Source: Shigella phage ESh22. Taken from it: 64,000 nt of DNA. Under the pieces are notes generated by a model that saw only the letters and a list, made by a program, of their open reading frames with translations, made no database searches and was not told the origin of the DNA. This document shows positions 7,201 to 23,098 of the stretch, piece by piece (within the stretch, counting starts at the first letter, position 1; each line of letters opens with the position of its first letter). Made by a program: the position numbers and the translations under genes. The stretch lies in the sequence record ON528732; one strand, written 5' to 3'.

Positions 7201-9027
7201 TTAGAGTTGTTTGTCAATGTTATTTCGAACATCACGAAGGTTTACATAACCATATGGTTGAGAGTTGCTAAACACCAACTTCAAAGCACATTCTGGATTA
7301 TCCAGTACACCTTCAAACTCTGCAAAGCCAAAGCCGTCTACAGCTTCCAGTTTATCACCGTCACACATAGGAACTACACCACCAAAAGCAGACTTCTTAA
7401 GACCACTGTCAGTTTTAGGGTCTTTTGCCAGCATGATTTCTTCACCGTCCATCTGAGCAAGAGTAGCCTTGACAGCAAATGCAAAGGTATCACGAGTCAG
7501 GTACTGGTAAGTGTATGAACCAACACCAAAGACCACGTTAGAGCTTGCAAAACCTTTGTCAGCAAGACGACCAAGAATCTCATTAGCTCGCTCAAGGGTG
7601 ATAGAATCACCATAGATTAAACCGATGTGCTCATCCAGTACTTTGTAACCTTTACTGTTCACACGACCACCAAAGATGTTGTAGAGAGTTGGGATAGCCC
7701 CATCAATCTCTGCTGTCAGCATACGCTTAACAACAATATTTCCGGTCTTATTAAAATCTTTCAAGTTAACTGTTTCAGCAGTTTCAAAATCTTCTTTATC
7801 AACAACTAACTCATAACCTTCAGAGATAAGCCATGCAGCAAACCCATAACCCATATCCTGCAACTCACAATACTGAATAAGATTCAGGAGTTTATCATTG
7901 TTCGGTGCAATTTCTTTCATATGTTTGTAGAACATACTCTTGGCATTTTCCCACTCAACAGCACGATAACCAGCAACAATGTGAATGGGGTCTCCAGAGT
8001 CTGGACGTATTACCAGTTTACCTTCACGCTTCAGGATAACTTCACGGAGTTCTGGGAGAATCTCTGTAACAGTACGCCAGAAGTTGTAAGTATCTGAAAC
8101 AACACTTGCAATACCAGTTGGATATACGTCTACCAGTAAATGCTCAAAGGTTTTAACCTCACCACGCCAACGTTTTGCATCCAGCAAGCTATCAGACTGC
8201 ATGATGTACTGTGAATGAATATCTTCCTCTGACAAGTCTTTCATATTCCATGAAATGTTTGCGCACATCACAGAGTGTTCAGTAGCTGGTACAGAGTTGC
8301 CGATATCACTTACTTCCATAAACTGACCATAAGCACGTTTAGCAGTGTAGACAGCAGGGAAGCTGTCAGTACCTTTAAAGCTTGTCAGGTGACCTACAGC
8401 GTTAAAAGCATCATCTGTAAAGCCTGACATACCACGCATTGCAAAATCATGACACTGCCAAGGTAAATGGAAGTCATTATCACAGGTTACATCAGCCCAT
8501 TGCTTACAGATGCGTTTGTAGTGTAATGCAATAGTGGCAATCGTAGAAGCTTTCCAAATTTCAGCAGAGAAAGCATCTTCCAGATATCCAGCTACCCAAT
8601 GGAAGCCCTCTACAGTATTCTTGAAGATAATCATTGGAACACGCATTGGAACCACTGTACCCTCTTCTACAGAGTAGACTTCGACTGGCAGATAGCCTAA
8701 ATCGTGAAGTTCTTCCCAATGCTCACGACCAATCGCATCTGCACCGAGAACACCGTTCATGATTTCTAAGATTTCGTCAACAACTTCTTTCTTATCTCGT
8801 TCAAAGAAGGTAGCATTCCAGTGGTCTACTAAGTAATCTTTAACGAAACGTTGAATACCAAAAGCAACTACACCGTCAATATCAAGTGGAGTGTTAAACC
8901 ACTTATCACCACGAGGTGTAAGATTTAGCATCAGATACTGTGTAGCACTTGGGTACTGGTAGATATGGCCAGCTTTGTAAGCATCCGCATTAAGACCTGC
9001 TGGTACTGCATAAACTGATTTAGACAT
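7201..9027 (-). CDS. nicotinamide phosphoribosyltransferase (NAMPT/NadV)-family protein; possibly a nicotinamide ADP-ribose transferase
   Basis: ORF 7201..9069, start trimmed to the ATG at 9027 (MSKSVYAVPAGLNADAYKAGH...) preceded by a GAGAGAGA RBS; about 609 aa, longer than typical NAMPT; family assigned from N-terminal region and overall pattern recalled for NadV/PncB-like proteins. Confidence 0.7.
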   Translation of the reverse strand: MSKSVYAVPAGLNADAYKAGHIYQYPSATQYLMLNLTPRGDKWFNTPLDIDGVVAFGIQRFVKDYLVDHWNATFFERDKKEVVDEILEIMNGVLGADAIGREHWEELHDLGYLPVEVYSVEEGTVVPMRVPMIIFKNTVEGFHWVAGYLEDAFSAEIWKASTIATIALHYKRICKQWADVTCDNDFHLPWQCHDFAMRGMSGFTDDAFNAVGHLTSFKGTDSFPAVYTAKRAYGQFMEVSDIGNSVPATEHSVMCANISWNMKDLSEEDIHSQYIMQSDSLLDAKRWRGEVKTFEHLLVDVYPTGIASVVSDTYNFWRTVTEILPELREVILKREGKLVIRPDSGDPIHIVAGYRAVEWENAKSMFYKHMKEIAPNNDKLLNLIQYCELQDMGYGFAAWLISEGYELVVDKEDFETAETVNLKDFNKTGNIVVKRMLTAEIDGAIPTLYNIFGGRVNSKGYKVLDEHIGLIYGDSITLERANEILGRLADKGFASSNVVFGVGSYTYQYLTRDTFAFAVKATLAQMDGEEIMLAKDPKTDSGLKKSAFGGVVPMCDGDKLEAVDGFGFAEFEGVLDNPECALKLVFSNSQPYGYVNLRDVRNNIDKQL

Positions 9028-9042
9028 AATTTTATCTCTCTC

Positions 9043-9070
9043 AATAGTGGGGCTTTTCAGCCCCTTCAAA
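9043..9070 (-). promoter_or_regulatory. GGGGCUGAAAAGCCCC hairpin element (identical to the core at 4190-4205), no U-tract
   Basis: Exact 16-nt repeat of the hairpin in the rIIB promoter-like element; sits between the Prs-like gene stop and the NAMPT-like gene start. Confidence 0.4.
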
Positions 9071-9075
9071 GTTTA

Positions 9076-9957
9076 TTACTCAATGTTTGCTACAGTTACT
9101 TGTGAGAACTGATTCAGACCACGGTCTTCAGCATCCCCTAGCGAGTTTGTAGTGTAGATATGGTCAATGCCATTGTCAAGAAGATTTTCAACACCTTTTG
9201 AGAAAATCCCATGAGTTACATAAAGTTCTACACGGCTTGCACCAGCTTCACGAAGATGTTTTGCAGCTTCTACAAAGGTACGACCACCATCACAGATATC
9301 ATCGAGAATCATGACAGCTTTACCAGTTAAGTCTACATCATCAAGGATTCGCATACCAGTGATTTCACCAGTTTTCAGATTACGAATCTTAGCCATTGTG
9401 ATATATGGCTTATCAACCTCTTTAGCAGCCTCTTCAGTCTTCTTGGCTGCACCTGCATCTGGAGCCACTAAGAAATCAATACGTGGGTCACTTGCAAAGT
9501 GTACTGCTGCTTCTTTCTGGGGCAGGTTATGGAAGCACTTAAACAAGTTCTCTGCTACGTTGCTGTGAGTATCTAAAGCACATACTGCATCAAACTCCAT
9601 AGCATTTACCAGATTTGCAAAGACTTTCAATGCTGCTGCATCACCTTTAAACATGTGACGGTCATAACGAGCATTTGGTAAGAAGCCAAATACAGCAGTC
9701 TTCATAGTTGATTTCTGAGGAATTAGTTTGTCAATAGCTTCTTTCGCCAGAGCTAAAGCAAACAGAGTATCTTTGTCGTAACCCTGTACAGTGAGGATTA
9801 CATTCTCAATCTGGGAAGCATTCTGTTCAGCATAGGCTACTAGGTCTTCTGAGAAGTTACCACCAATTTCTCCAGACGGAAACTGGATAATGTTGAACTC
9901 TTCTTGGTGAGCACCTTTTTTACGTGAGTGTAACAGTACACTAATAATAGTTTTCAT
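9076..9957 (-). CDS. ribose-phosphate pyrophosphokinase (Prs)-family protein; PRPP synthetase or ADP-ribose pyrophosphate synthetase-like
   Basis: 293 aa; 'FPSGE', 'FGFLPNARYDR', 'LDTHS' and the PRPP-binding loop 'VMILDDICDGGRTF' follow the Prs pattern; immediately upstream of the NAMPT-like gene. Confidence 0.75.
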   Translation of the reverse strand: MKTIISVLLHSRKKGAHQEEFNIIQFPSGEIGGNFSEDLVAYAEQNASQIENVILTVQGYDKDTLFALALAKEAIDKLIPQKSTMKTAVFGFLPNARYDRHMFKGDAAALKVFANLVNAMEFDAVCALDTHSNVAENLFKCFHNLPQKEAAVHFASDPRIDFLVAPDAGAAKKTEEAAKEVDKPYITMAKIRNLKTGEITGMRILDDVDLTGKAVMILDDICDGGRTFVEAAKHLREAGASRVELYVTHGIFSKGVENLLDNGIDHIYTTNSLGDAEDRGLNQFSQVTVANIE

Positions 9958-15349: not shown

Positions 15350-15556
15350 TTAATTTTTGTTTAAGAGATTATCAAGGAAGTTTTTAACCTTGGTACTCCA
15401 TCCAAACTGAATGTCTAGAATTTCAATGATTAGCCATACTAGCATAAACCCGAACATTAAACCTTGTTTAAAGTCAATGAACATGTTCAGCAAGAAAATT
15501 ACCCAGAGAAGCATAGGAGCATCTTCTTTGAAGCCTTTAAAGATTTTATCCAGCAT
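15350..15556 (-). CDS. small membrane protein (68 aa)
   Basis: ORF track; two hydrophobic segments. Confidence 0.45.
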   Translation of the reverse strand: MLDKIFKGFKEDAPMLLWVIFLLNMFIDFKQGLMFGFMLVWLIIEILDIQFGWSTKVKNFLDNLLNKN

Positions 15557-15791
15557 TATTCACCTCTGCCATGAAGTTTTGTAAAGTACCTACAGGAGTT
15601 AAAACTGTATCTTCCGTTTTCATGATGAACGGCATTTGACGAACTGGCATTTTTGCAATGCCCATCAAATCTTGGAGTTCATAGTCTTTGCCAAGCATTC
15701 TTACAATGTGGTCAATCCCACGAGCTTGAGCAAAATTCTTTGCGGTTACACACTGAGGGCAACCGTCTTTTGAATAAATTACATAAGTCAT
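15546..15791 (-). CDS. glutaredoxin/NrdH-like redoxin
   Basis: 81 aa; CxxC active site 'CPQC' near the N-terminus; sits between nrdB and nrdD. Confidence 0.65.
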   Translation of the reverse strand: MTYVIYSKDGCPQCVTAKNFAQARGIDHIVRMLGKDYELQDLMGIAKMPVRQMPFIMKTEDTVLTPVGTLQNFMAEVNNAG

Positions 15792-16864
15792 TAAGGAACC
15801 TCTAAAAATCCTGAAGATAAATCATCTACAACTGTGTTAAGCAAGTAAGCACCATTTTGCTGTTCTTGGTTAGCATTTTGCTCTTTGTCGATTTCCATCT
15901 TCTTAATCATGTAAGCAAGTGGAGCTTCTTTAGGAGCTACGAAATCTCTTGGGATTCCAAACATATCATACAGCGGTGCAGCATTATAGTAAACCCATTC
16001 GTGAAGAAGTTTTGTGTTTAAACCTACAACTGCTCGACCTTCAGAGAAGATATAGTAAGACCACTTCTCTTCACATTCAACAACTTCGTCCAGAATAACT
16101 TTAATCTCTGGCATAATCTGTCTGAATGCTTCCTGCCAGTTCTCATCCTTCAGAGTTTCTTTCAACACTTCGATATCAATTTTGGTGTGAATAATTTCAT
16201 CAAGCATAATCTTTTGAACAGCTTGTGCAATACCTTGGAACTTATCTTGTGCATCCAGTGCAAAAGTACATGCAAAAGATGCCATGAAGGAAATGCCTTC
16301 CAAAGCAGTCACTGCAAAGAGAGCCTTTAAGATTGCCTTATGGAAATGTAAAGGGTCTTTATCTGTCAGTTCCTGACGAACGTAACTTAAACGATAGTTG
16401 ATACCTTCGTCAAGTAGTTCTTGTAAAGTTCTGTTCACTGTCTTCAGACGGTCTTGAACAGCAACGTTATTGTTAATCTCATCAAGGATTGTTTCAGGAT
16501 TCTTGATACACTGACGAACAATCTCAGAATAAGTTAAAGCATGAAGGTTCTCAATTTCAGATTGCTTCATGATTGCAGTTGCATAAATGTCATCAGAGAT
16601 AAACGGTGCAAAAGCGAATGCTAAACTCTTGGCAACTTGGGTATCTGCTTCCCATTGCCATTTAAGAATTTCAAGCATAACCCCAGACATTGACTGAGGG
16701 ACACTCTCAAAGTCTAAGCGTGATTGCTCAAATGGAAATTCCTCTTCAGACCAGTCTTGAGCTTTCTGCTGCTTATACAGTTCAAAGATTTTTGGATAGT
16801 ATTTATTAAGTGAATCAAAAGTCTTACGTTCTTCACCTAAGAAGATTGGATGTGAATTAATCAT
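15791..16864 (-). CDS. nrdB: ribonucleotide reductase class Ia small subunit
   Basis: 357 aa; ferritin-like di-iron region with spaced Glu/His residues; immediately downstream of nrdA. Confidence 0.8.
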   Translation of the reverse strand: MINSHPIFLGEERKTFDSLNKYYPKIFELYKQQKAQDWSEEEFPFEQSRLDFESVPQSMSGVMLEILKWQWEADTQVAKSLAFAFAPFISDDIYATAIMKQSEIENLHALTYSEIVRQCIKNPETILDEINNNVAVQDRLKTVNRTLQELLDEGINYRLSYVRQELTDKDPLHFHKAILKALFAVTALEGISFMASFACTFALDAQDKFQGIAQAVQKIMLDEIIHTKIDIEVLKETLKDENWQEAFRQIMPEIKVILDEVVECEEKWSYYIFSEGRAVVGLNTKLLHEWVYYNAAPLYDMFGIPRDFVAPKEAPLAYMIKKMEIDKEQNANQEQQNGAYLLNTVVDDLSSGFLEVP

Positions 16865-17136
16865 TCTGGTAATTTTCCTGTTCTGAACATATCTCTCGCA
16901 GCTTGTCTTGTAAGGACTAGCCAGTTTTCCATATTAAATAACTCAGGTGCTCTAACATATTCTTTGCCGCCATTAAAGCAGTCAATATATCTCACACATT
17001 TCTTCCAAGAATCATCATCCTGCTTTACCATTACCTCTGTACTGGCAACATAGTAAAGTGTATTTCTTGGCTTATACATCAGATAAACAGATTTGCCTTC
17101 TGCTTTATTTCTTGCGGATTCTATTAAGTCTATCAT
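16861..17136 (-). CDS. hypothetical protein between nrdA and nrdB (about 92 aa)
   Basis: ORF 16861..17247 trimmed to the ATG at 17136 (MIDLIES) with GGAGAG RBS; upstream part overlaps nrdA. Confidence 0.45.
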   Translation of the reverse strand: MIDLIESARNKAEGKSVYLMYKPRNTLYYVASTEVMVKQDDDSWKKCVRYIDCFNGGKEYVRAPELFNMENWLVLTRQAARDMFRTGKLPE

Positions 17137-17191
17137 AGACTCTCCAAAGTTAATTTTAGAGGGTCTTTTACGACCCTCATAGTTATTGAAA

Positions 17192-19426
17192 CTAAACACC
17201 ACAACCTTCACAGTAAGTATCTTGTAGTGCTGACTTACCAACACCAATACGACTGTTAAGGTAATACATGGTTTTCATACCAACTGAGTTAGCATAAATC
17301 ATGTACTTCAGAGCTTGCTCTAATGATACCTTCTTAGACTTCGAGTAGTCAACATAGAAATCTGAAGAGATAGCTTGACCAGTGAATTTTTGAACAATTG
17401 CATAGCAATCAATCATATCAAATGTGTCAATATCCCAAGCAATTTCATAGACATACTTCAACTCTTCGTAGTCTGGTACGATAAACAGTACGTTACCAGT
17501 TGCAGACTTTTTAGTTAAAATAAAGTCACGGATTGGGTACAAGCCATTTGTCGTATTAGTTGCTAGTGAAGAACTCTCGTTAGGCATGTAAGCTTCTAAT
17601 ACAGAGTTTCGGATTCCACCATTTTCTTTGATACGTTGTGCTAAGTCATCCCAATCATATCTTAGTTTTGCATCATGTTTTTCATCAATCTTCTTGTTAG
17701 CTGTCTTAGTTGGAACCCAACCATCAGGGTACTTAGTAAACTTCATGTACTCAGGTACACCACGCTCTTTAGACAGTCTCAGTGAAGCCTCATGCAGATA
17801 GAATGAGTGCATCTCTGCAAGTTCATGTAGCTTCGTTTTACCAGCCCTTGAAGAGTAGTTCACGTAGTTCTTTGCAAGGTAATGAGCCACATTTGTAAGG
17901 CCAATCCCAACAGAGCGACGTTTCTGTACATGGTTACACATCGACGGATACGGGTAATCCATAAGGTCAATAACGGAGTCAACCATTGCAAGAGCATAAT
18001 AAGCAACGTCAGCGTATTCATCTTCTGAAATTCTCCCTGCAACCAAACTAGCTAGGAAGCAAAGAGCTACTTCACCATCTTCTTTAGCAGCATTGTAGCT
18101 GTAAAGGTCTGTCTCTTTCTCAAATCCATAAACTGGCAATATAATTTCCATGCACAGGTTAGACATTTTCAAAGGTTCTTTGAACGGCGTATGTGTGTTT
18201 GCGTTGTTCGTAAAGAACGGATAAACACGACCAGTTGCATAACGTTGCTGGATAAACAACTTAGCAATCTCACGAGCTTTTACTCGTTTATGTTTAACAC
18301 CAGTGTGAACCGCATGTCCAACAGCCATTGCAAACTCATCTGCACTTGCTGTATAGAACATATCATACAATTTTGGAGCGTCCTTGTAAGAGAACAGTAG
18401 CCAATCTGTATCGTACTGCACACATTGCCAGAAGTAATCGTTTGTTCCAAATGAGTAATCCATCTCATTAATACGCTTTGAAGTAACCGTTGTAGGGTGC
18501 TTCAGACGAAGTAAATCTTCAATCTGAGGGTCAAGAGCAGTGTAGAAGTTGTTCGCTGAACCACCTCGACTCTTTTGTTTATTAGCCTCTACAGCAGCAC
18601 GTACAAGCTTATAATAAGGGAGTTTCCCCATATGCTCAATGGTATTCTGACGAATCCCGTCACCAATCGTTCTGGTCTCCATAAGCATACCAATACCAGC
18701 TTGCTTTGTAGTCATATCATAAGCTACCTTTGTAGCAATACCAAGTGATTCAGCGGTATCGTTAGCTTTAATCAAGCAGCATGAAGCATAACCTGACTTA
18801 GTAGCTCTCAAACCATTCAGGTAAGGAGTTGGAGCATTAATTTTCAAGTCTGACAGATAAGTATACAGCTTGATAACATCCTCTAAGCGACGGTGCTTAG
18901 GCTGTCTCTCAAAGGCTTTCATAGCCATTCCCATAAACATAAACTGAGGTGACTCAAAGAGTTGTCCAGTTTTAATGTCACGGATTCCGTACTTGTCACG
19001 GAACTGTTTCAGTACTGCATAACCATATGAGATATCTTTTGAGTGAACGATGAAGCCTTGAAGGTATTCTAACTCTTCTCGTGAGTAATCCATCTTCTCC
19101 CATAAACCTGACTCTTCCATATTCTTAACAAATACGTAAAGATTTGGAACTTTAGTGAATCCACCAAAAGCTTCTTTATAGATAATACCTAACAGAAGTC
19201 GTCCAGCCATGTCAGAGTATTCTTGACTTTGCTTATCAATACAAACGTCAATCATAGCTTGGTGCATCTCTTTAGTGGTGCAACCTTCATAGACACGTTT
19301 CATAGCTTCCATTGTAACTTCTGACCAGATAATACCTCGTTTGTCAGCCCATGAAGCCCACTTATTCAAACGTTCAGGCTCGAATGTTACAACGTTTCCG
19401 TTAGATTTGCGAATAGTTTTAATCAT
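17192..19426 (-). CDS. nrdA: ribonucleotide reductase class Ia large subunit
   Basis: 744 aa; N-terminal ATP-cone-like segment (MIKTIRKSNGNVVTFEPERL), C-terminal Cys pair '...CEGCGV'. Confidence 0.85.
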   Translation of the reverse strand: MIKTIRKSNGNVVTFEPERLNKWASWADKRGIIWSEVTMEAMKRVYEGCTTKEMHQAMIDVCIDKQSQEYSDMAGRLLLGIIYKEAFGGFTKVPNLYVFVKNMEESGLWEKMDYSREELEYLQGFIVHSKDISYGYAVLKQFRDKYGIRDIKTGQLFESPQFMFMGMAMKAFERQPKHRRLEDVIKLYTYLSDLKINAPTPYLNGLRATKSGYASCCLIKANDTAESLGIATKVAYDMTTKQAGIGMLMETRTIGDGIRQNTIEHMGKLPYYKLVRAAVEANKQKSRGGSANNFYTALDPQIEDLLRLKHPTTVTSKRINEMDYSFGTNDYFWQCVQYDTDWLLFSYKDAPKLYDMFYTASADEFAMAVGHAVHTGVKHKRVKAREIAKLFIQQRYATGRVYPFFTNNANTHTPFKEPLKMSNLCMEIILPVYGFEKETDLYSYNAAKEDGEVALCFLASLVAGRISEDEYADVAYYALAMVDSVIDLMDYPYPSMCNHVQKRRSVGIGLTNVAHYLAKNYVNYSSRAGKTKLHELAEMHSFYLHEASLRLSKERGVPEYMKFTKYPDGWVPTKTANKKIDEKHDAKLRYDWDDLAQRIKENGGIRNSVLEAYMPNESSSLATNTTNGLYPIRDFILTKKSATGNVLFIVPDYEELKYVYEIAWDIDTFDMIDCYAIVQKFTGQAISSDFYVDYSKSKKVSLEQALKYMIYANSVGMKTMYYLNSRIGVGKSALQDTYCEGCGV

Positions 19427-19475: not shown

Positions 19476-19811
19476 TTAAATGCTAAAAATCTTTTGATTA
19501 TCCCAGAGTTCGTAGAATCTTTGAGATACTTTGGTAATTGAGCCTTTAGACATTGCATTGCAATACCAGCTACCATATTGGTCACTGAAGATTCTTTCAA
19601 GTTTTTCATGGATATTGTCATCAATCCTTGCAATTGAAAAGTTACCACGAACTTTAGAAACAACACGACCAAACTTAATATCACTACGACCTTTGCAATC
19701 TTCTGTATACATTACAAAGTCACCGAAGTGGAGTGGTTCTCCATATTTGTCAACACCTAGTTCTACACCAGATTTAACATCTTCAATAGTCAACTTTTTA
19801 GCTTTAGACAT
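19476..19811 (-). CDS. hypothetical protein (111 aa)
   Basis: ORF track. Confidence 0.45.
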   Translation of the reverse strand: MSKAKKLTIEDVKSGVELGVDKYGEPLHFGDFVMYTEDCKGRSDIKFGRVVSKVRGNFSIARIDDNIHEKLERIFSDQYGSWYCNAMSKGSITKVSQRFYELWDNQKIFSI

Positions 19812-20127
19812 GGTATCTATCCAGATTTCGTTTTAAATAAGTCCACTGCTCATCTGTGCGTTCTACACCAATAAACAGAGGAGCTACAACTACTTGACCA
19901 TAAGTATTTCTGTGCTGACAAATCTCATAAGAGAACTTTTTATCAATGTTAAAGCCATATTTGTACAGGACAGCTTTAAGAACTTGTTCGTTATCCAGAA
20001 GTGTATCTGGAGTTTCACCATATTTCGCTAACAGTGAATCATTCATGAATACTGTCATAGAAATATTATAGTTTGAGAAATGGCTCTCCTGAGCCACCTC
20101 TGCTTTATTAGTGTTCTGTGAATCCAT
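19804..20127 (-). CDS. hypothetical protein (107 aa)
   Basis: ORF track. Confidence 0.45.
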   Translation of the reverse strand: MDSQNTNKAEVAQESHFSNYNISMTVFMNDSLLAKYGETPDTLLDNEQVLKAVLYKYGFNIDKKFSYEICQHRNTYGQVVVAPLFIGVERTDEQWTYLKRNLDRYHV

Positions 20128-20863
20128 TATAACCTACCCCTTTTAACCAATTCTTCAGGTTATTTGCATCATAGTTCAACTTCGGGTATGAGGTCGTATG
20201 GAACTTCTCACCATCGTAGTAAACGATATCTGCAACCCACAAGTCATTATCTCTACAGAAATCTCTATCAGCTTTAGAACTGATTGGAGTAATTTCTGTG
20301 AAGTTATCTACACCAAGGCTTCTCAGACTTCCTAGTAAGCCCTGACAGATAACACATGTGTCAGATACTACCACGAATAACTCTTTAGATTCAACCTCTG
20401 CGATAAACTCTGCAAGCTGAACTTTTGGGAGATTAGACTGCTTCATAATCTTACCATCTGATTTACGTACTACTGCAAACCACTCTTTACCTTCAACCAT
20501 TGACGGGCGTAGATAGCATTCATCACCAGTACGTTTCTCAATGTCAAACATACGTTGTACAGCTTCTTGATAGTTATCTGTATATTTCAGGTTGTTATTC
20601 TGGCAAACAGCTTCCATAGCACCATCGTGGTCATGCTGTGACAAGAATACCAAACCATCTAAAACATACTGCAAATCAGCCTGAGCATCAAGGGTTTCAA
20701 CAGGGTCTTTTGCTTCAACTGCTGACACTAACTCTTTAGCTTCTTCCAACATACAAAGAGATTGACTCTTCAGTGATTCCCAATATTCAGGGCTGTATAG
20801 AACCTTTGGAGTATTACCACAACGAAGATTCCAATTTACTACGGATTCTCTGGAATTAAACAT
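20108..20863 (-). CDS. two-domain protein: MazG-like NTP pyrophosphohydrolase segment + thioredoxin-like CxxC segment (tentative)
   Basis: 251 aa; N-terminal 'LEEAKELVSAVEAKD...ETLDAQADLQYVLDG' resembles the MazG acidic helix pattern; C-terminal 'VVVSDTCVICQGLLGSL' has a CxxC in a thioredoxin-like context. Confidence 0.35.
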   Translation of the reverse strand: MFNSRESVVNWNLRCGNTPKVLYSPEYWESLKSQSLCMLEEAKELVSAVEAKDPVETLDAQADLQYVLDGLVFLSQHDHDGAMEAVCQNNNLKYTDNYQEAVQRMFDIEKRTGDECYLRPSMVEGKEWFAVVRKSDGKIMKQSNLPKVQLAEFIAEVESKELFVVVSDTCVICQGLLGSLRSLGVDNFTEITPISSKADRDFCRDNDLWVADIVYYDGEKFHTTSYPKLNYDANNLKNWLKGVGYNGFTEH

Positions 20864-21072
20864 TAAACCTCCTGAAACAATTCCTGTTTAGACAAAATAT
20901 AATCCAGACGGGCTTTCAGTTCAACACGTTTGTTAATCAGGTGCTGAATTTGAGACTCCAGAGCATCCATCTCTGTTTCAGTGGCTTCTTTAGCCTTTGC
21001 AATAACCGTCTTCAGATTATCCAAGCCAGCTTCGATTTTAGCTTGATGGTCGTGCTTGATAGATTTAAACAT
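20863..21072 (-). CDS. small coiled-coil protein (69 aa)
   Basis: ORF track; heptad-like charged sequence. Confidence 0.4.
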   Translation of the reverse strand: MFKSIKHDHQAKIEAGLDNLKTVIAKAKEATETEMDALESQIQHLINKRVELKARLDYILSKQELFQEV

Positions 21073-21577
21073 GATTTTCTCTCTCGTTAAGCTTCATGAT
21101 TTTGTTAATACGTTTCTCAGCTTCTTCATAAGTTTCTTTTGTAAGGAACTTGATAGCTGCAATATTGGCATTGTAGAAGAGTCTGAGTTTCGAGTCAATC
21201 CTTTTTGTCATAACATCGAACTTATGTTGGAGATTTGCTTCTCCGTAGACTAATCCACCTCGTGTATAATAGGTTTGCACAATGTAGAAGTCAAACTCTT
21301 TCATACCAAAAGCTTCAATATCTTTCTTAATGTACTCAGAAGAAGTCTGGTAAACCATCCAGTCACTCTCTTTGGTGACAACCTTACGTCTGGTCTTTCC
21401 AGCAACCTTCTTCTTAGTGATACTATTGAACTGTTTTTTACCCAAATAGTACTGACCAGTCTTTTTGCAGTAGACTAGATAAACGAAGCCAAAGTACTTT
21501 GCAGGGTCAATTTCACCACATAATGATACCCAATGTCCGTAAGTAGGGCAATTACCAAAACCTTTAATCTTTATCAT
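21065..21577 (-). CDS. GIY-YIG-like homing endonuclease (tentative)
   Basis: 170 aa; 'GFVYLVYCKKTGQYYLGKK' fits the GIY-(10-11)-YIG spacing; adjacent to an HNH endonuclease. Confidence 0.4.
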   Translation of the reverse strand: MIKIKGFGNCPTYGHWVSLCGEIDPAKYFGFVYLVYCKKTGQYYLGKKQFNSITKKKVAGKTRRKVVTKESDWMVYQTSSEYIKKDIEAFGMKEFDFYIVQTYYTRGGLVYGEANLQHKFDVMTKRIDSKLRLFYNANIAAIKFLTKETYEEAEKRINKIMKLNERENHV

Positions 21578-22110
21578 TCATAAGTTTCTCCGTGATTTGC
21601 AAACTCTCTATGGAGTTCTTCTCTTTTCTTTCTAACAACATTTTCAGCCTCAGCTACAGAATCAAACAGTCCGAGGTGATAGCAAACTTTATTATGTTTA
21701 ACCTGCGCAACCCATCTGCATCTTTGCTTGTGGTAATAGACACCCTTCACACCAGACTTGTTGTCTTTCCTCTTAGTTGCGTTGCAGTTATTATCTGACC
21801 TGCTGCACTCTCTTAAATTGTCGAACCAGTTTTCGTGCCTAATACCGTTCTTATGGTCAACTAATTTAGGTAGGTAACCTTTTATGTATAAAAATGCTAA
21901 CCTGTGTGCTGCGTACCTTTTACCAAAAAGTTTTATATAAACATAGCCGCTATGGTGTTTAACTCCAGCTACAGAGCCAGCTTTAGCCTTACCAGTTCTA
22001 TCTACTAACCAAGTAAAGACCCCTGTTTCGGGGTCATAGTGTAGGTATTCTTTAAGAATCTGCTGAGTTAACATTTGGTGTCCACCCATACTTATCAAAA
22101 GTGAAATCAT
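21574..22110 (-). CDS. HNH homing endonuclease with AP2-type DNA-binding domain
   Basis: 178 aa; 'VDHKNGIRHENWFDNLR' HNH motif; 'GVKGVYYHKQRCRWVAQV...GLFDSVAEAE' AP2-like domain; ORF start overlaps the 3' end of the exonuclease gene, so the true start may be an internal ATG. Confidence 0.7.
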   Translation of the reverse strand: MISLLISMGGHQMLTQQILKEYLHYDPETGVFTWLVDRTGKAKAGSVAGVKHHSGYVYIKLFGKRYAAHRLAFLYIKGYLPKLVDHKNGIRHENWFDNLRECSRSDNNCNATKRKDNKSGVKGVYYHKQRCRWVAQVKHNKVCYHLGLFDSVAEAENVVRKKREELHREFANHGETYE

Positions 22111-23098
22111 CTTTCTTGTTTCTTTCCTGATAGGCTAAGAAGAAGTGTTGCTGCATTAACTCTAAAGGTGTTCTGGTAATTGTCTGGCCATCCCATGAAA
22201 CATAAGTATAAGAGTCTTTCTTAGCGTAGAGTTCGTAAATTGCATCAAGACATTCTTTATAAGTGGTTTTACCTTCAAGAGCTTTCATTACTGCAACTTT
22301 ACCAGCACCTTTTAAACCAAAGTAGTTATCTGCATTATCACCAGCGACAGCTTGGTAGCAGAGGAATTTAAATCCCACTCCGACCGCCTTCTTAGCTTTT
22401 GGTGTAGATTTTATTGGACAATCCCAAATCTCACCAACGTTATTATCAGCAATAAAAATCAATGGGTTTTTCTCATAAGTCATATCAATGCAATAAGTAC
22501 CTTCAGCTTGACGAAGGTCTTTGTCAATACTCATGAGGGCAGCTTTTTTACCCATCTTCTCAGCTTTCGCAATAACGATAGAGTCAGCTTCAAATCCATC
22601 AAGAATCAGCTTAAACTCAGGTCGTGACAGAAGATACTCACGACAAGCAACTAGGTGCGTAGGTGTCACCGCTTCTTTTCTGTTACCTTGATATTGGTGT
22701 TCAAGACCTTTGATATCCTTGTGTTTGTGAACACCTTTCTCAGTAAGGTAACCCATCCATTTTCGCTCTTTACCAACGACTTTCAACCACTCCTGAAGAA
22801 CCTGCTGAGTCGCCATAATAGCTTCTTTTTCACTCTTGGCTTCCTTCCAAGTCTGTCTTTCCCATTCATCTTCATCAAAGTCAAGTCCAAGTTCCTCTGT
22901 AAGAACTCTCTGGTCAGCTAACCATTGTGAAGATAACTTAGCACTATCAAAGTCATCAGACTCTTCAGCGGTAAGTTTATTCACATACTTGTACTTTGCT
23001 TTTTCAACTACACAAGCACCCTTGTAAGCAATGCTGTCTGCGTCAATGAAGACGTGTGTAACGCTTTCTGGGAGCTTTGTAAGTGTATACTGATTCAT
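22052..23098 (-). CDS. 5'-3' exonuclease / flap endonuclease (FEN/RNase H-like)
   Basis: 348 aa; N-terminal 'VFIDADSIAYKGA' acidic motif typical of FEN family; in the replication block. Confidence 0.5.
   Translation of the reverse strand: MNQYTLTKLPESVTHVFIDADSIAYKGACVVEKAKYKYVNKLTAEESDDFDSAKLSSQWLADQRVLTEELGLDFDEDEWERQTWKEAKSEKEAIMATQQVLQEWLKVVGKERKWMGYLTEKGVHKHKDIKGLEHQYQGNRKEAVTPTHLVACREYLLSRPEFKLILDGFEADSIVIAKAEKMGKKAALMSIDKDLRQAEGTYCIDMTYEKNPLIFIADNNVGEIWDCPIKSTPKAKKAVGVGFKFLCYQAVAGDNADNYFGLKGAGKVAVMKALEGKTTYKECLDAIYELYAKKDSYTYVSWDGQTITRTPLELMQQHFFLAYQERNKKDDFTFDKYGWTPNVNSADS

What the first reader, a model, noticed from the sequence alone, without database searches (positions are those of the whole stretch)
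20108..20863. Possible MazG-like pyrophosphohydrolase fused to a thioredoxin-like CxxC domain
The N-terminal half has an acidic helix pattern reminiscent of MazG/HisE NTP pyrophosphohydrolases (EEAKELVSAVEAKD ... ETLDAQADLQYVLDG); the C-terminal half has VVVSDTCVICQGLLGSL, resembling a thioredoxin-fold CxxC. If real, this fusion could link nucleotide-pool sanitation or alarmone hydrolysis to redox control next to the nrd genes.
Basis: inference. Interest (0 to 1): 0.4.

Follow-up and report, generated by a model that had tools for sequence, protein, structure and literature searches.

The report
Phage MazG-like pyrophosphatase fused to glutaredoxin-like domain

Summary
The ORF is real (window 20108..20863, minus strand, 251 aa). 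It has a strong ribosome-binding site and is conserved in about 300 Ounavirinae phage genomes.

- **N-terminal module (residues 1-152):** it passes Pfam's PRA-PH (HisE/MazG-superfamily) threshold, and its acidic metal-binding residues are invariant. Many records already call it "MazG-like pyrophosphatase" or "phosphoribosyl-ATP pyrophosphohydrolase".
- **Active-site features:** the CxxC is invariant, but the cis-proline that is otherwise near-universal in this fold is absent in every member.
- **Distribution:** the domain was found only in this fusion. Stand-alone versions of the N-terminal module exist in other phages, one followed directly by a separate thioredoxin gene. All sit beside thymidylate synthase and RNR genes.

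The architecture is therefore supported. The proposed function, a (d)NTP pyrophosphohydrolase serving dNTP supply with a thiol-redox or metal-sensing accessory domain, is inference. This is a new variant of a known kind, of moderate interest.

The parts
20108..20863 (-). Complete ORF, 251 aa: MazG/PRA-PH-like pyrophosphohydrolase fused to a glutaredoxin-like domain
   Evidence: ORF list. PHROG 2144 E=1e-91 over the full length. Full-length homologues from 99% down to 33% identity.
20408..20863 (-). N-terminal catalytic module (residues 1-152): four or five helices, then a helix and beta-hairpin extension with invariant R133, K138, K141 and P146
   Evidence: Pfam PRA-PH hit on residues 17-86. 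phrog_671 'nucleotide pyrophosphohydrolase' on residues 6-160, E=1.5e-15. Secondary structure from the model. Invariant columns. Stand-alone homologues of 158-175 aa cover this module.
20606..20815 (-). Core PRA-PH/MazG-type region (residues 17-86) holding the acidic motif E40-E41-x-x-E44 ... E56-x-x-D59-x-x-x-D63
20387..20407 (-). Inter-domain linker (residues 153-159), variable in sequence
   Evidence: pLDDT below 50 at residues 154-158. Poorly conserved, gap-containing columns.
20129..20386 (-). C-terminal thioredoxin-fold (glutaredoxin-like) domain, residues 160-245: b1 161-165, a1 171-182, b2 189-191, a2 197-205, b3 212-216, b4 221-225, a3 233-242
20345..20356 (-). CxxC motif (C170-V-I-C173), invariant cysteines at the b1/a1 junction
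   Evidence: Invariant in 15 sequences down to about 30% domain identity, seen as CVIC, CIIC, CAIC, CEIC, CSMC, CFIC, CTQC and CSLC.
20228..20245 (-). a2-b3 loop (residues 207-212, DLWVAD), where the canonical cis-proline should be. It holds Ala211-Asp212 instead.
   Evidence: The HMMER alignment to NrdH 4fiw places the query's 'gD' on NrdH's 'AP'. No member has a proline anywhere in residues 200-226.
20868..20873 (-). Shine-Dalgarno AGGAGG, 4 nt upstream of the ATG. The start overlaps the upstream ORF's stop (TAATG).
   Evidence: Read directly from the sequence.
19804..20127 (-). Downstream partner ORF (107 aa, phrog_4007, function unknown), overlapping the target's 3' end by 20 nt
   Evidence: phrog_4007 E=1.9e-59. 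A homologue directly follows a stand-alone MazG-like gene in L008 (BLASTP E=5e-12).

Best explanation
The gene encodes a two-domain phage nucleotide-metabolism protein.

Shown:
- The N-terminal 152 residues are an all-alpha NTP pyrophosphohydrolase of the PRA-PH/HisE-MazG superfamily with an intact acidic metal-binding motif.
- Residues about 160-245, joined by a flexible linker, form a minimal thioredoxin/glutaredoxin fold with an invariant CxxC at the usual active-site position.
- The fusion is conserved in Felix O1-type (Ounavirinae) phages. It always sits in the exonuclease ... NrdA-NrdB-Grx-NrdD replication and dNTP-supply block.

Inferred:
- The N-domain hydrolyses (d)NTPs to (d)NMP + PPi as part of phage dNTP-pool management. 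The most plausible roles are supplying dUMP or excluding dUTP or non-canonical dNTPs, because these phages encode ThyA, DHFR, dNMP kinase and RNR but have no annotated dUTPase or dCMP deaminase.
- The tethered redoxin-like domain uses its two cysteines as a thiol-redox module. It would either couple the enzyme to the RNR/redoxin system or switch its activity with the redox state.
- Because the cis-proline is missing, it is probably not a standard broad-specificity disulfide reductase.
For: - **C-domain sequence link:** sub-threshold PDB sequence hits are enriched for NrdH, Grx and Trx and align in register. The P0023 C-terminus scores 25.6 bits on Pfam Glutaredoxin against a 22.9 cutoff, and hits phrog_22 'thioredoxin domain' at E=1.9e-4. 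P0023 is linked to the window's domain at E=1e-11. CxxC is invariant.
- **Gene-split evidence:** stand-alone N-modules of 158-175 aa exist. In L005 one is followed directly by a separate 95-aa WCPNC thioredoxin, then ThyX and RNR.
- **Context:** L002 and L006 show MazG-like, kinase, ThyX, RNR, Grx. Fused members keep exonuclease ... MazG-Trx ... NrdA-NrdB-Grx-NrdD.
- **No competing enzyme annotated:** the InterPro-based whole-genome annotation of Silverhawkium lists no dUTPase or dCMP deaminase. The Felix O1 genome paper lists none either (PMC3185647).
Against: - No enzymatic or redox activity has been measured, and substrate specificity cannot be read from the sequence.
- The window protein's C-domain has no direct significant hit in Pfam, NCBIfam, PHROG redoxin families or PDB sequences. 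The link to glutaredoxins is structural plus transitive.
- The cis-proline is absent in all members. It is more conserved across Trx-fold groups than the CxxC itself (PMC2757866). The glutaredoxin GSH-binding motifs and the NrdH WSGFRP motif are also missing.
- The phage already has a canonical glutaredoxin next to nrdB (15546..15791, CPQC), so a second RNR reductant is not obviously needed.
- 'No dUTPase' rests on annotation, not on an exhaustive search.
- The N-domain model is only moderately confident (pLDDT 54-93 by block).
Confidence: 0.6

Rival explanations
1. The C-terminal domain is not a thiol-disulfide oxidoreductase. It would be a metal-binding module (Zn or a bridged [2Fe-2S] cluster) that senses iron, oxygen or redox state, or that dimerises the pyrophosphohydrolase. 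It would use the CxxC thiolates left exposed by the loss of the cis-proline, possibly with the invariant D199 and the polar residue at 212.
For: - No proline occurs between a2 and b4 in any member. The cis-Pro position holds a small residue followed by a polar one: AD, GD, SD, GS, GC or GQ.
- No CxxC variant in the family has the proline typical of Grx (CPYC) or Trx (CGPC).
[quoted passage not shown] 2007 (PMC2757866).
- A198-D199 at the start of a2 are invariant, which is unusual for redoxins.
Against: - Only two cysteines are invariant. C203 is lost in P0022 and P0023, so a mononuclear four-ligand site needs dimerisation or non-Cys ligands.
- No model coordinates were available to test whether D199 and D212 lie close to the CxxC.
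- The closest structural and sequence neighbours are ordinary dithiol redoxins.
Confidence: 0.22
2. The N-domain's physiological substrate is not a DNA precursor but a signalling nucleotide, such as (p)ppGpp or an immune second messenger, or a nucleotide used by a host defence system. On this reading the protein is a host-takeover or counter-defence factor, with the redoxin domain as an accessory.
For: - MazG proteins are discussed as (p)ppGpp hydrolases and counter-defence candidates.
- The mazG-like gene of the Felixounavirus P10 acquired mutations during phage-bacteria coevolution (PMC13155118).
Against: - In every locus examined, fused and stand-alone forms are embedded among dNMP kinase, ThyX or ThyA, RNR, exonuclease and replication genes. 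They are not among early host-takeover or anti-defence genes.
- The P10 authors themselves say the role remains to be demonstrated, and the mutations occurred both with and without oxidative stress.
Confidence: 0.13
3. It is a genuine HisE (phosphoribosyl-ATP pyrophosphohydrolase) acting in histidine biosynthesis, as many deposited annotations state.
For: The best Pfam family is PRA-PH. The best PDB sequence and fold hits for the N-domain are HisE 1yvw and HisIE 6j22. Several records are named accordingly.
Against: - No other his gene is present in the phage, and the context is dNTP metabolism.
- The similarity to HisE is marginal (E=0.011).
- The protein carries a helix and beta-hairpin extension and a redoxin domain that the 115-aa HisE chain 1yvw has no room for (HisE otherwise from my own knowledge).
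- The closest wider relatives are about 134 aa long and named generic 'nucleoside triphosphate pyrophosphohydrolase family protein'.
Confidence: 0.03
4. The C-terminal domain is a redox-dead structural or docking domain. It would serve oligomerisation or binding to RNR or the replisome, as E. coli thioredoxin serves T7 DNA polymerase independently of redox chemistry. The CxxC would be kept for stability only.
For: The cis-Pro, GSH-binding and NrdH motifs are missing. A canonical Grx is already encoded. The C-domain evolves faster than the N-domain: 30-39% against 34-54% identity in distant members.
Against: Both cysteines are strictly invariant while nearly everything around them varies. That argues for chemistry at the thiols. 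A purely structural role would not usually preserve an exposed CxxC at the helix N-terminus.
Confidence: 0.1

Closest known systems
Stand-alone phage PRA-PH-like NTP pyrophosphohydrolases (158-175 aa, e.g. P0039, P0043, P0047, P0049) and the wider family of about 134 aa ('nucleoside triphosphate pyrophosphohydrolase family protein', e.g. P0064)
   Same: They share the N-terminal module, including EExxE...LDxxxD, V-C-x-N-N-x-x-K and the R...K-x-x-K hairpin extension, with E from 1e-35 to 4e-19. They share the neighbourhood of exonuclease, dNMP kinase, ThyX and RNR.
   Different: They have no C-terminal redoxin domain. In L005 a canonical thioredoxin (WCPNC, with cis-Pro) is a separate adjacent gene. 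The 134-aa family has a shorter hairpin region.
HisE / HisIE phosphoribosyl-ATP pyrophosphatase (PDB 1yvw, 6j22) and MazG (Pfam PF03819) of the all-alpha NTP pyrophosphohydrolase superfamily
   Different: There is no histidine-biosynthesis context. The protein has an extra helix and beta-hairpin extension and a fused redoxin domain. The MazG Pfam model is not reached by the window protein itself.
Short dithiol glutaredoxin-like proteins: cGrx1 (7c10), BC3987 (3zij), XcR50/DUF836 (1xpv), mycoredoxin-1 (2lqq) and NrdH (1h75, 4fiw, 1r7h)
   Different: No cis-proline before b3. No GSH-binding TVP or GG-D motifs, and no NrdH WSGFRP motif. Family-specific invariant A198-D199 and W239-L240. It never occurs as a free-standing protein.
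The phage's own stand-alone glutaredoxin (window 15546..15791; phrog_22)
   Same: Thioredoxin fold with a CxxC, encoded in the same nucleotide-metabolism block.
   Different: It has a canonical CPQC and a cis-Pro ('QMP'). hhalign to the C-domain profile is weak and restricted to b1-CxxC-a1 (probability 18%), so the fused domain is not a recent copy of it.
Redoxin domains fused to nucleotide-metabolism enzymes, such as the glutaredoxin-NrdB fusion of Facklamia ignava, and T4 gp56 dCTPase/dUTPase (both recalled from my own knowledge, not tested here)
   Same: A precedent for tethering a glutaredoxin to a dNTP-synthesis enzyme, and for a phage all-alpha NTP pyrophosphatase feeding dUMP or dCMP into thymidylate synthesis.
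   Different: The partner enzyme is different (pyrophosphohydrolase, not RNR). No detectable sequence relationship to gp56 was sought or found here.

Membership tests
Pfam PRA-PH (PF01503) / all-alpha NTP pyrophosphohydrolase superfamily | Profile HMM score above the curated gathering threshold | tested here: met
   30.2 bits against a 21.3 cutoff, E=6.2e-7, residues 17-86. Homologues score 38.3 and 25.6 bits.
Pfam PRA-PH (PF01503) / all-alpha NTP pyrophosphohydrolase superfamily | Conserved acidic metal-binding residues on two adjacent helices (EExxE ... E/DxxD) | tested here: met
   E40, E41, E44 and D63 are invariant. D53, E56 and D59 are nearly invariant in 15 sequences.
Pfam PRA-PH (PF01503) / all-alpha NTP pyrophosphohydrolase superfamily | Helical-bundle fold similar to solved members | tested here: inconclusive
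Pfam PRA-PH (PF01503) / all-alpha NTP pyrophosphohydrolase superfamily | Mg-dependent hydrolysis of NTP to NMP + PPi | not testable with these tools
   Needs an enzyme assay.
MazG proper (Pfam PF03819) | Profile HMM score above the gathering threshold | tested here: not met
   The window protein has no PF03819 hit. Homologue P0018 scores 19.2 bits, below the 22 cutoff. Only P0022 carries a precomputed PF03819 hit.
HisE (EC 3.6.1.31, histidine biosynthesis) | Association with other his genes or the his pathway | tested here: not met
   No his genes appear in the annotated genome of a close relative. The context is dNTP metabolism and replication.
Thioredoxin-fold class | b-a-b-a-b-b-a topology, a four-stranded mixed sheet flanked by three helices | tested here: met
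Thioredoxin-fold class | CxxC dyad at the N-terminus of helix 1 | tested here: met
   C170 and C173 lie between b1 (161-165) and a1 (171-182). They are invariant in all 15 members.
Thioredoxin-fold class | [quoted passage not shown] | tested here: not met
   The position holds A211-D212. The NrdH alignment puts 'gD' on 'AP'. No member has a Pro in residues 200-226. The atlas says this Pro is more conserved than the CxxC (PMC2757866).
Glutaredoxin (Pfam PF00462) | Profile HMM score above the gathering threshold | tested here: inconclusive
   The window domain has no hit. The C-domain of relative P0023 scores 25.6 bits against a 22.9 cutoff, E=1.4e-5. P0036 scores 21.1 bits. The matches cover only profile positions 1-40 of 60.
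Glutaredoxin (Pfam PF00462) | Glutathione-binding motifs (TVP loop, GG-x-D-D before the last helix) | tested here: not met
   Read from the alignment: WVAD replaces TVP, and TTSYPKLNYD replaces the GG-D motif. The motif definitions come from my own knowledge.
NrdH-redoxin | C-V/M-Q-C active site plus the WSGFRP motif | tested here: not met
Redox-active thiol-disulfide oxidoreductase (functional class) | Reversible disulfide at the CxxC, with reduction of RNR, insulin or HED | not testable with these tools
   Needs biochemical assays.

The most novel reading that the evidence does not exclude
The C-terminal domain would be a natural cis-proline-less thioredoxin fold whose CxxC, helped by the family-specific invariant Asp residues, binds a metal or an Fe-S cluster. 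It would make a phage dNTP pyrophosphohydrolase respond to the iron, oxygen or redox state of the infected cell. That would coordinate precursor supply with the switch between the phage's aerobic (NrdAB) and anaerobic (NrdDG) reductases. It would be a new kind of regulatory module on an NTP pyrophosphatase, present in a classical model phage.
Probability: 0.12. Interest if true: 0.7.

Novelty: new variant of a known kind. Interest (0 to 1): 0.4.

Why it matters
Felix O1-type phages are classical typing and biocontrol phages with hundreds of sequenced genomes. About a third of this conserved protein has gone unannotated: records call it MazG-like, PRA-PH or "hypothetical", and none of the records listed calls it a redoxin. 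Recognising a tethered glutaredoxin-like domain gives three things:

- A concrete, testable link between dNTP-pool hydrolysis and the thiol-redox/RNR system in a phage that carries its own dNTP-supply genes.
- A gene fusion/split pair (fusion here, adjacent genes in L005) supporting a functional partnership between this pyrophosphatase family and thioredoxin-fold proteins.
- A natural example of a CxxC thioredoxin fold without the near-universal cis-proline, which is relevant to how that residue controls catalysis versus metal binding.

It also corrects the misleading [quoted passage not shown] labels in the databases.

Tried and rejected
- **Direct profile searches of the C-terminal half:** Pfam, NCBIfam and PDB sequences with the window sequence or the close-homologue profile gave nothing significant. 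The link needed structure prediction and more distant members.
- **hhalign to the phage's own Grx:** the C-domain profile against the window's glutaredoxin, the L005 thioredoxin and a five-member phage Grx alignment gave only weak in-register matches around the CxxC. I therefore do not claim that the domain derives from the phage Grx.
- **Full-length phmmer against the PDB:** only spurious weak hits (TRAPPC3, MvcA).
- **Repeat proteins in the deep search:** P0025-P0028 are repetitive proteins with many short matched stretches, confirmed by sequence only for P0026. I discarded them as spurious.
- **A regulatory disulfide between the redoxin and invariant C87:** not supported. C87 is also conserved in stand-alone forms without a redoxin, and it is Ala in P0049, the one with an adjacent thioredoxin.
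- **Promoter and terminator scan around the gene:** counts were at the shuffled expectation and uninformative.
- **Literature searches** for the fusion or for a characterised Felix O1 MazG-like protein found no description.

Full report
**1. The observation**

The window holds an ATG-to-TAA ORF of 251 aa at exactly 20108..20863, on the minus strand. The sequence shows an AGGAGG ribosome-binding site 4 nt upstream of the ATG. The start overlaps the stop of the upstream 69-aa ORF as TAATG, and the 3' end overlaps the next ORF (19804..20127) by 20 nt. This is a tightly packed, translationally coupled gene string.

The window is a Felix O1-type (Ounavirinae) myophage. The region is 98.6% identical to Shigella phage ESh21 and 80-88% identical to Silverhawkium, Moogle, Sf14 and others. 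nrdA lies two small ORFs downstream. It is followed by nrdB, an 81-aa CPQC glutaredoxin, nrdD and nrdG.

**2. N-terminal half**

- Pfam PRA-PH (PF01503) matches residues 17-86 at 30.2 bits, above the 21.3 cutoff, E=6e-7.
- PHROG 2144 "MazG-like pyrophosphatase" matches the whole protein at E=1e-91. phrog_671 "nucleotide pyrophosphohydrolase" matches residues 6-160.
- In 15 sequences down to 33% identity, the acidic residues E40, E41, E44 and D63 are invariant. So are H79, C87, N89, N90 and K93, and the basic residues of a helix and beta-hairpin extension (R133, K138, K141).
- Several deposited records already name the gene "MazG-like pyrophosphatase" or "phosphoribosyl-ATP pyrophosphohydrolase". 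This half of the finding is correct but not new.

**3. C-terminal half**

The window's C-terminal sequence gets no direct hit in Pfam, NCBIfam or PDB sequences.

Fold evidence:
- AlphaFold2 on an 11-sequence alignment gave two domains joined by a low-confidence linker (residues 154-158). The C-terminal domain has pLDDT of about 90.
- The domain modelled alone gave pLDDT 88.5 and pTM 0.79. Its elements are b1(161-165), CxxC, a1(171-182), b2(189-191), a2(197-205), b3(212-216), b4(221-225), a3(233-242). This is the textbook minimal thioredoxin/glutaredoxin topology.
- The Foldseek top 50 PDB hits are all thioredoxin-fold proteins apart from one entry, 5xoc_B.

Sequence evidence:
- A profile that includes remote members gives sub-threshold PDB hits enriched for NrdH, Grx and Trx, aligned in register from b1 to b3.
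- The C-domain of family member P0023 passes Pfam Glutaredoxin (25.6 bits against 22.9, E=1.4e-5). Erwinia phage Rouille's scores 21.1 bits, and four members touch Glrx-like/DUF836.
- The P0023 domain also hits phrog_22 "thioredoxin domain". This is the PHROG of the phage's own glutaredoxin.
- P0023 is tied to the window's domain at E=1e-11, so homology to glutaredoxins is supported transitively as well as structurally.

**4. What is unusual**

- C170 and C173 are invariant. The motif appears as CVIC, CIIC, CAIC, CEIC, CSMC, CFIC, CTQC and CSLC.
- The cis-proline that precedes b3 in Trx, Grx, NrdH and Dsb proteins is missing. The loop reads WVAD (A211-D212), and GD, SD, GS, GC or GQ in remote members.
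- The NrdH alignment puts "gD" on NrdH's "AP". No member has any proline in residues 200-226.
- The glutaredoxin GSH-binding motifs and the NrdH WSGFRP motif are also absent.
- A198-D199 and W239-L240 are family-specific invariants.

The domain therefore has the fold and the dyad of a redoxin but fails one defining feature of the classical catalysts. I do not file it as a bona fide glutaredoxin or NrdH.

**5. Distribution and evolution**

- An exhaustive HMM search with the C-domain profile over 1.84 billion representative proteins found only six genuine clusters. All are 244-251 aa proteins with the domain at the C-terminus. At HMMER sensitivity the domain exists only in this fusion.
- tblastn finds it in 302 phage records. 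Going by organism names and the genome sizes of the listed records (about 85-90 kb), these are Ounavirinae-type phages of Escherichia, Salmonella, Shigella, Citrobacter, Erwinia, Pectobacterium, Hafnia and others. None of the listed records annotates it as a redoxin.
- A search with the N-module profile found the fused forms. It also found stand-alone versions of 158-175 aa (E from 1e-35 to 4e-19) and then the broad PRA-PH-like family of about 134 aa.
- In L005 the stand-alone gene is followed directly by a separate 95-aa canonical thioredoxin (WCPNC, with cis-Pro), then ThyX and RNR. This is a fusion/split pair.
- In L002 and L006 the order is RNase H-like exonuclease, MazG-like, kinase, ThyX, RNR, Grx.
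- In L008 the stand-alone gene is followed directly by a homologue of the window's downstream ORF (phrog_4007; BLASTP E=5e-12). The redoxin domain is therefore exactly the piece that differs at that junction.
- Distant fused members keep the synteny primase/helicase, exonuclease, GIY-YIG, small ORF, MazG-Trx, small ORF(s), NrdA, NrdB, Grx, NrdD.

**6. How it most likely works**

Shown: a two-domain protein with an intact NTP-pyrophosphohydrolase motif and a tethered CxxC thioredoxin fold, embedded in the phage's dNTP-supply and replication block.

Inferred:
- The N-domain hydrolyses (d)NTPs to (d)NMP + PPi.
- These phages encode ThyA, DHFR, dNMP kinase, NrdAB and NrdDG. Neither Silverhawkium's InterPro-based annotation nor the Felix O1 genome paper (PMC3185647) lists a dUTPase or dCMP deaminase.
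- The most economical role is therefore dUTP/dCTP to dUMP/dCMP conversion, or removal of non-canonical dNTPs. This would be analogous to other all-alpha NTP pyrophosphatases (an analogy from my own knowledge).
- The redoxin-like domain probably uses its thiols either to couple the enzyme to the RNR/redoxin system or to switch its activity with redox state.

Rivals:
- The cis-Pro-less CxxC binds a metal or Fe-S cluster and acts as a sensor or dimerisation module.
- The substrate is a signalling nucleotide and the protein is a counter-defence factor. A Felixounavirus mazG-like gene mutated during coevolution, but its role is undemonstrated (PMC13155118).
- The domain is a redox-dead docking module.
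- It is a true HisE. This is very unlikely, because no his context exists.

**7. Verdict**

The functional reading is plausible but untested.

The MazG-like identity is already in the databases. What is new is the divergent glutaredoxin-like domain: its restriction to this fusion, the split-gene counterpart, and the missing cis-proline. I found no literature describing it.

This is a new variant of a known kind, of moderate interest. It rises to high interest only if the cis-Pro-less CxxC proves to be a metal or redox sensor controlling nucleotide hydrolysis.

Noticed in passing
window 21065..21577 (-): This 170-aa ORF is a SegE-type GIY-YIG homing endonuclease (Pfam PF19835, E=3e-26). PHROG 447 and RefSeq records of relatives label it 'NAD synthetase', an apparent propagated misannotation.
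   Followed up: partly
window 21574..22110 (-): An HNH + AP2-domain homing endonuclease (178 aa) sits between the GIY-YIG gene and the exonuclease gene, and its 5' end overlaps the exonuclease ORF (22052..23098) by about 59 nt. Silverhawkium has no gene at this position and Moogle has a shorter one, so this looks like a mobile insertion.
   Followed up: partly
window 19804..20127 (-); L008 1422..1685: The 107-aa ORF that overlaps the target's 3' end (phrog_4007, unknown function) has a homologue directly downstream of a stand-alone MazG-like gene in an unrelated metagenomic contig (E=5e-12). This suggests a conserved gene pair and a possible functional partner. It also has a weak hit to a PHROG labelled 'thymidylate synthase' (phrog_3506, E=1e-12).
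   Followed up: partly
window 15546..15791 (-): A stand-alone 81-aa glutaredoxin (CPQC, canonical cis-Pro 'QMP') lies between nrdB and nrdD. It is the presumed RNR reductant according to the Felix O1 genome paper. The NrdA C-terminus ends in YCEGCGV, the usual redoxin-accepting tail.
   Followed up: partly
window 7201..9069 (-) and 9076..9957 (-): By position and length these two ORFs correspond to Silverhawkium's nicotinamide phosphoribosyltransferase and ribose-phosphate pyrophosphokinase, a phage NAD+-salvage pair. They may be relevant to NAD-depleting host defences. The window ORFs themselves were not scanned.
   Followed up: no
window 16861..17247 (-): The mechanical ORF list gives a 128-aa TTG-started ORF that overlaps the 3' end of nrdA by 56 nt. 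The homologous gene in Silverhawkium is only 91 aa, so the true start is probably an internal ATG (MIDLIESARNK...).
   Followed up: no
L005 8134..10983: In this metagenomic phage contig the RNR large-subunit gene is split into two ORFs (369 and 253 aa) by an inserted gene with a faint NUMOD3 hit, probably a homing-endonuclease or intron-type interruption.
   Followed up: no
H46, Listeria phage LPML1 (OK283618.1) 78892..79164: An 87-kb record attributed to a Listeria host carries the C-terminal domain at 36% identity. All other hits are phages of Enterobacterales, so the host attribution or the phage's relationships look odd.
   Followed up: no
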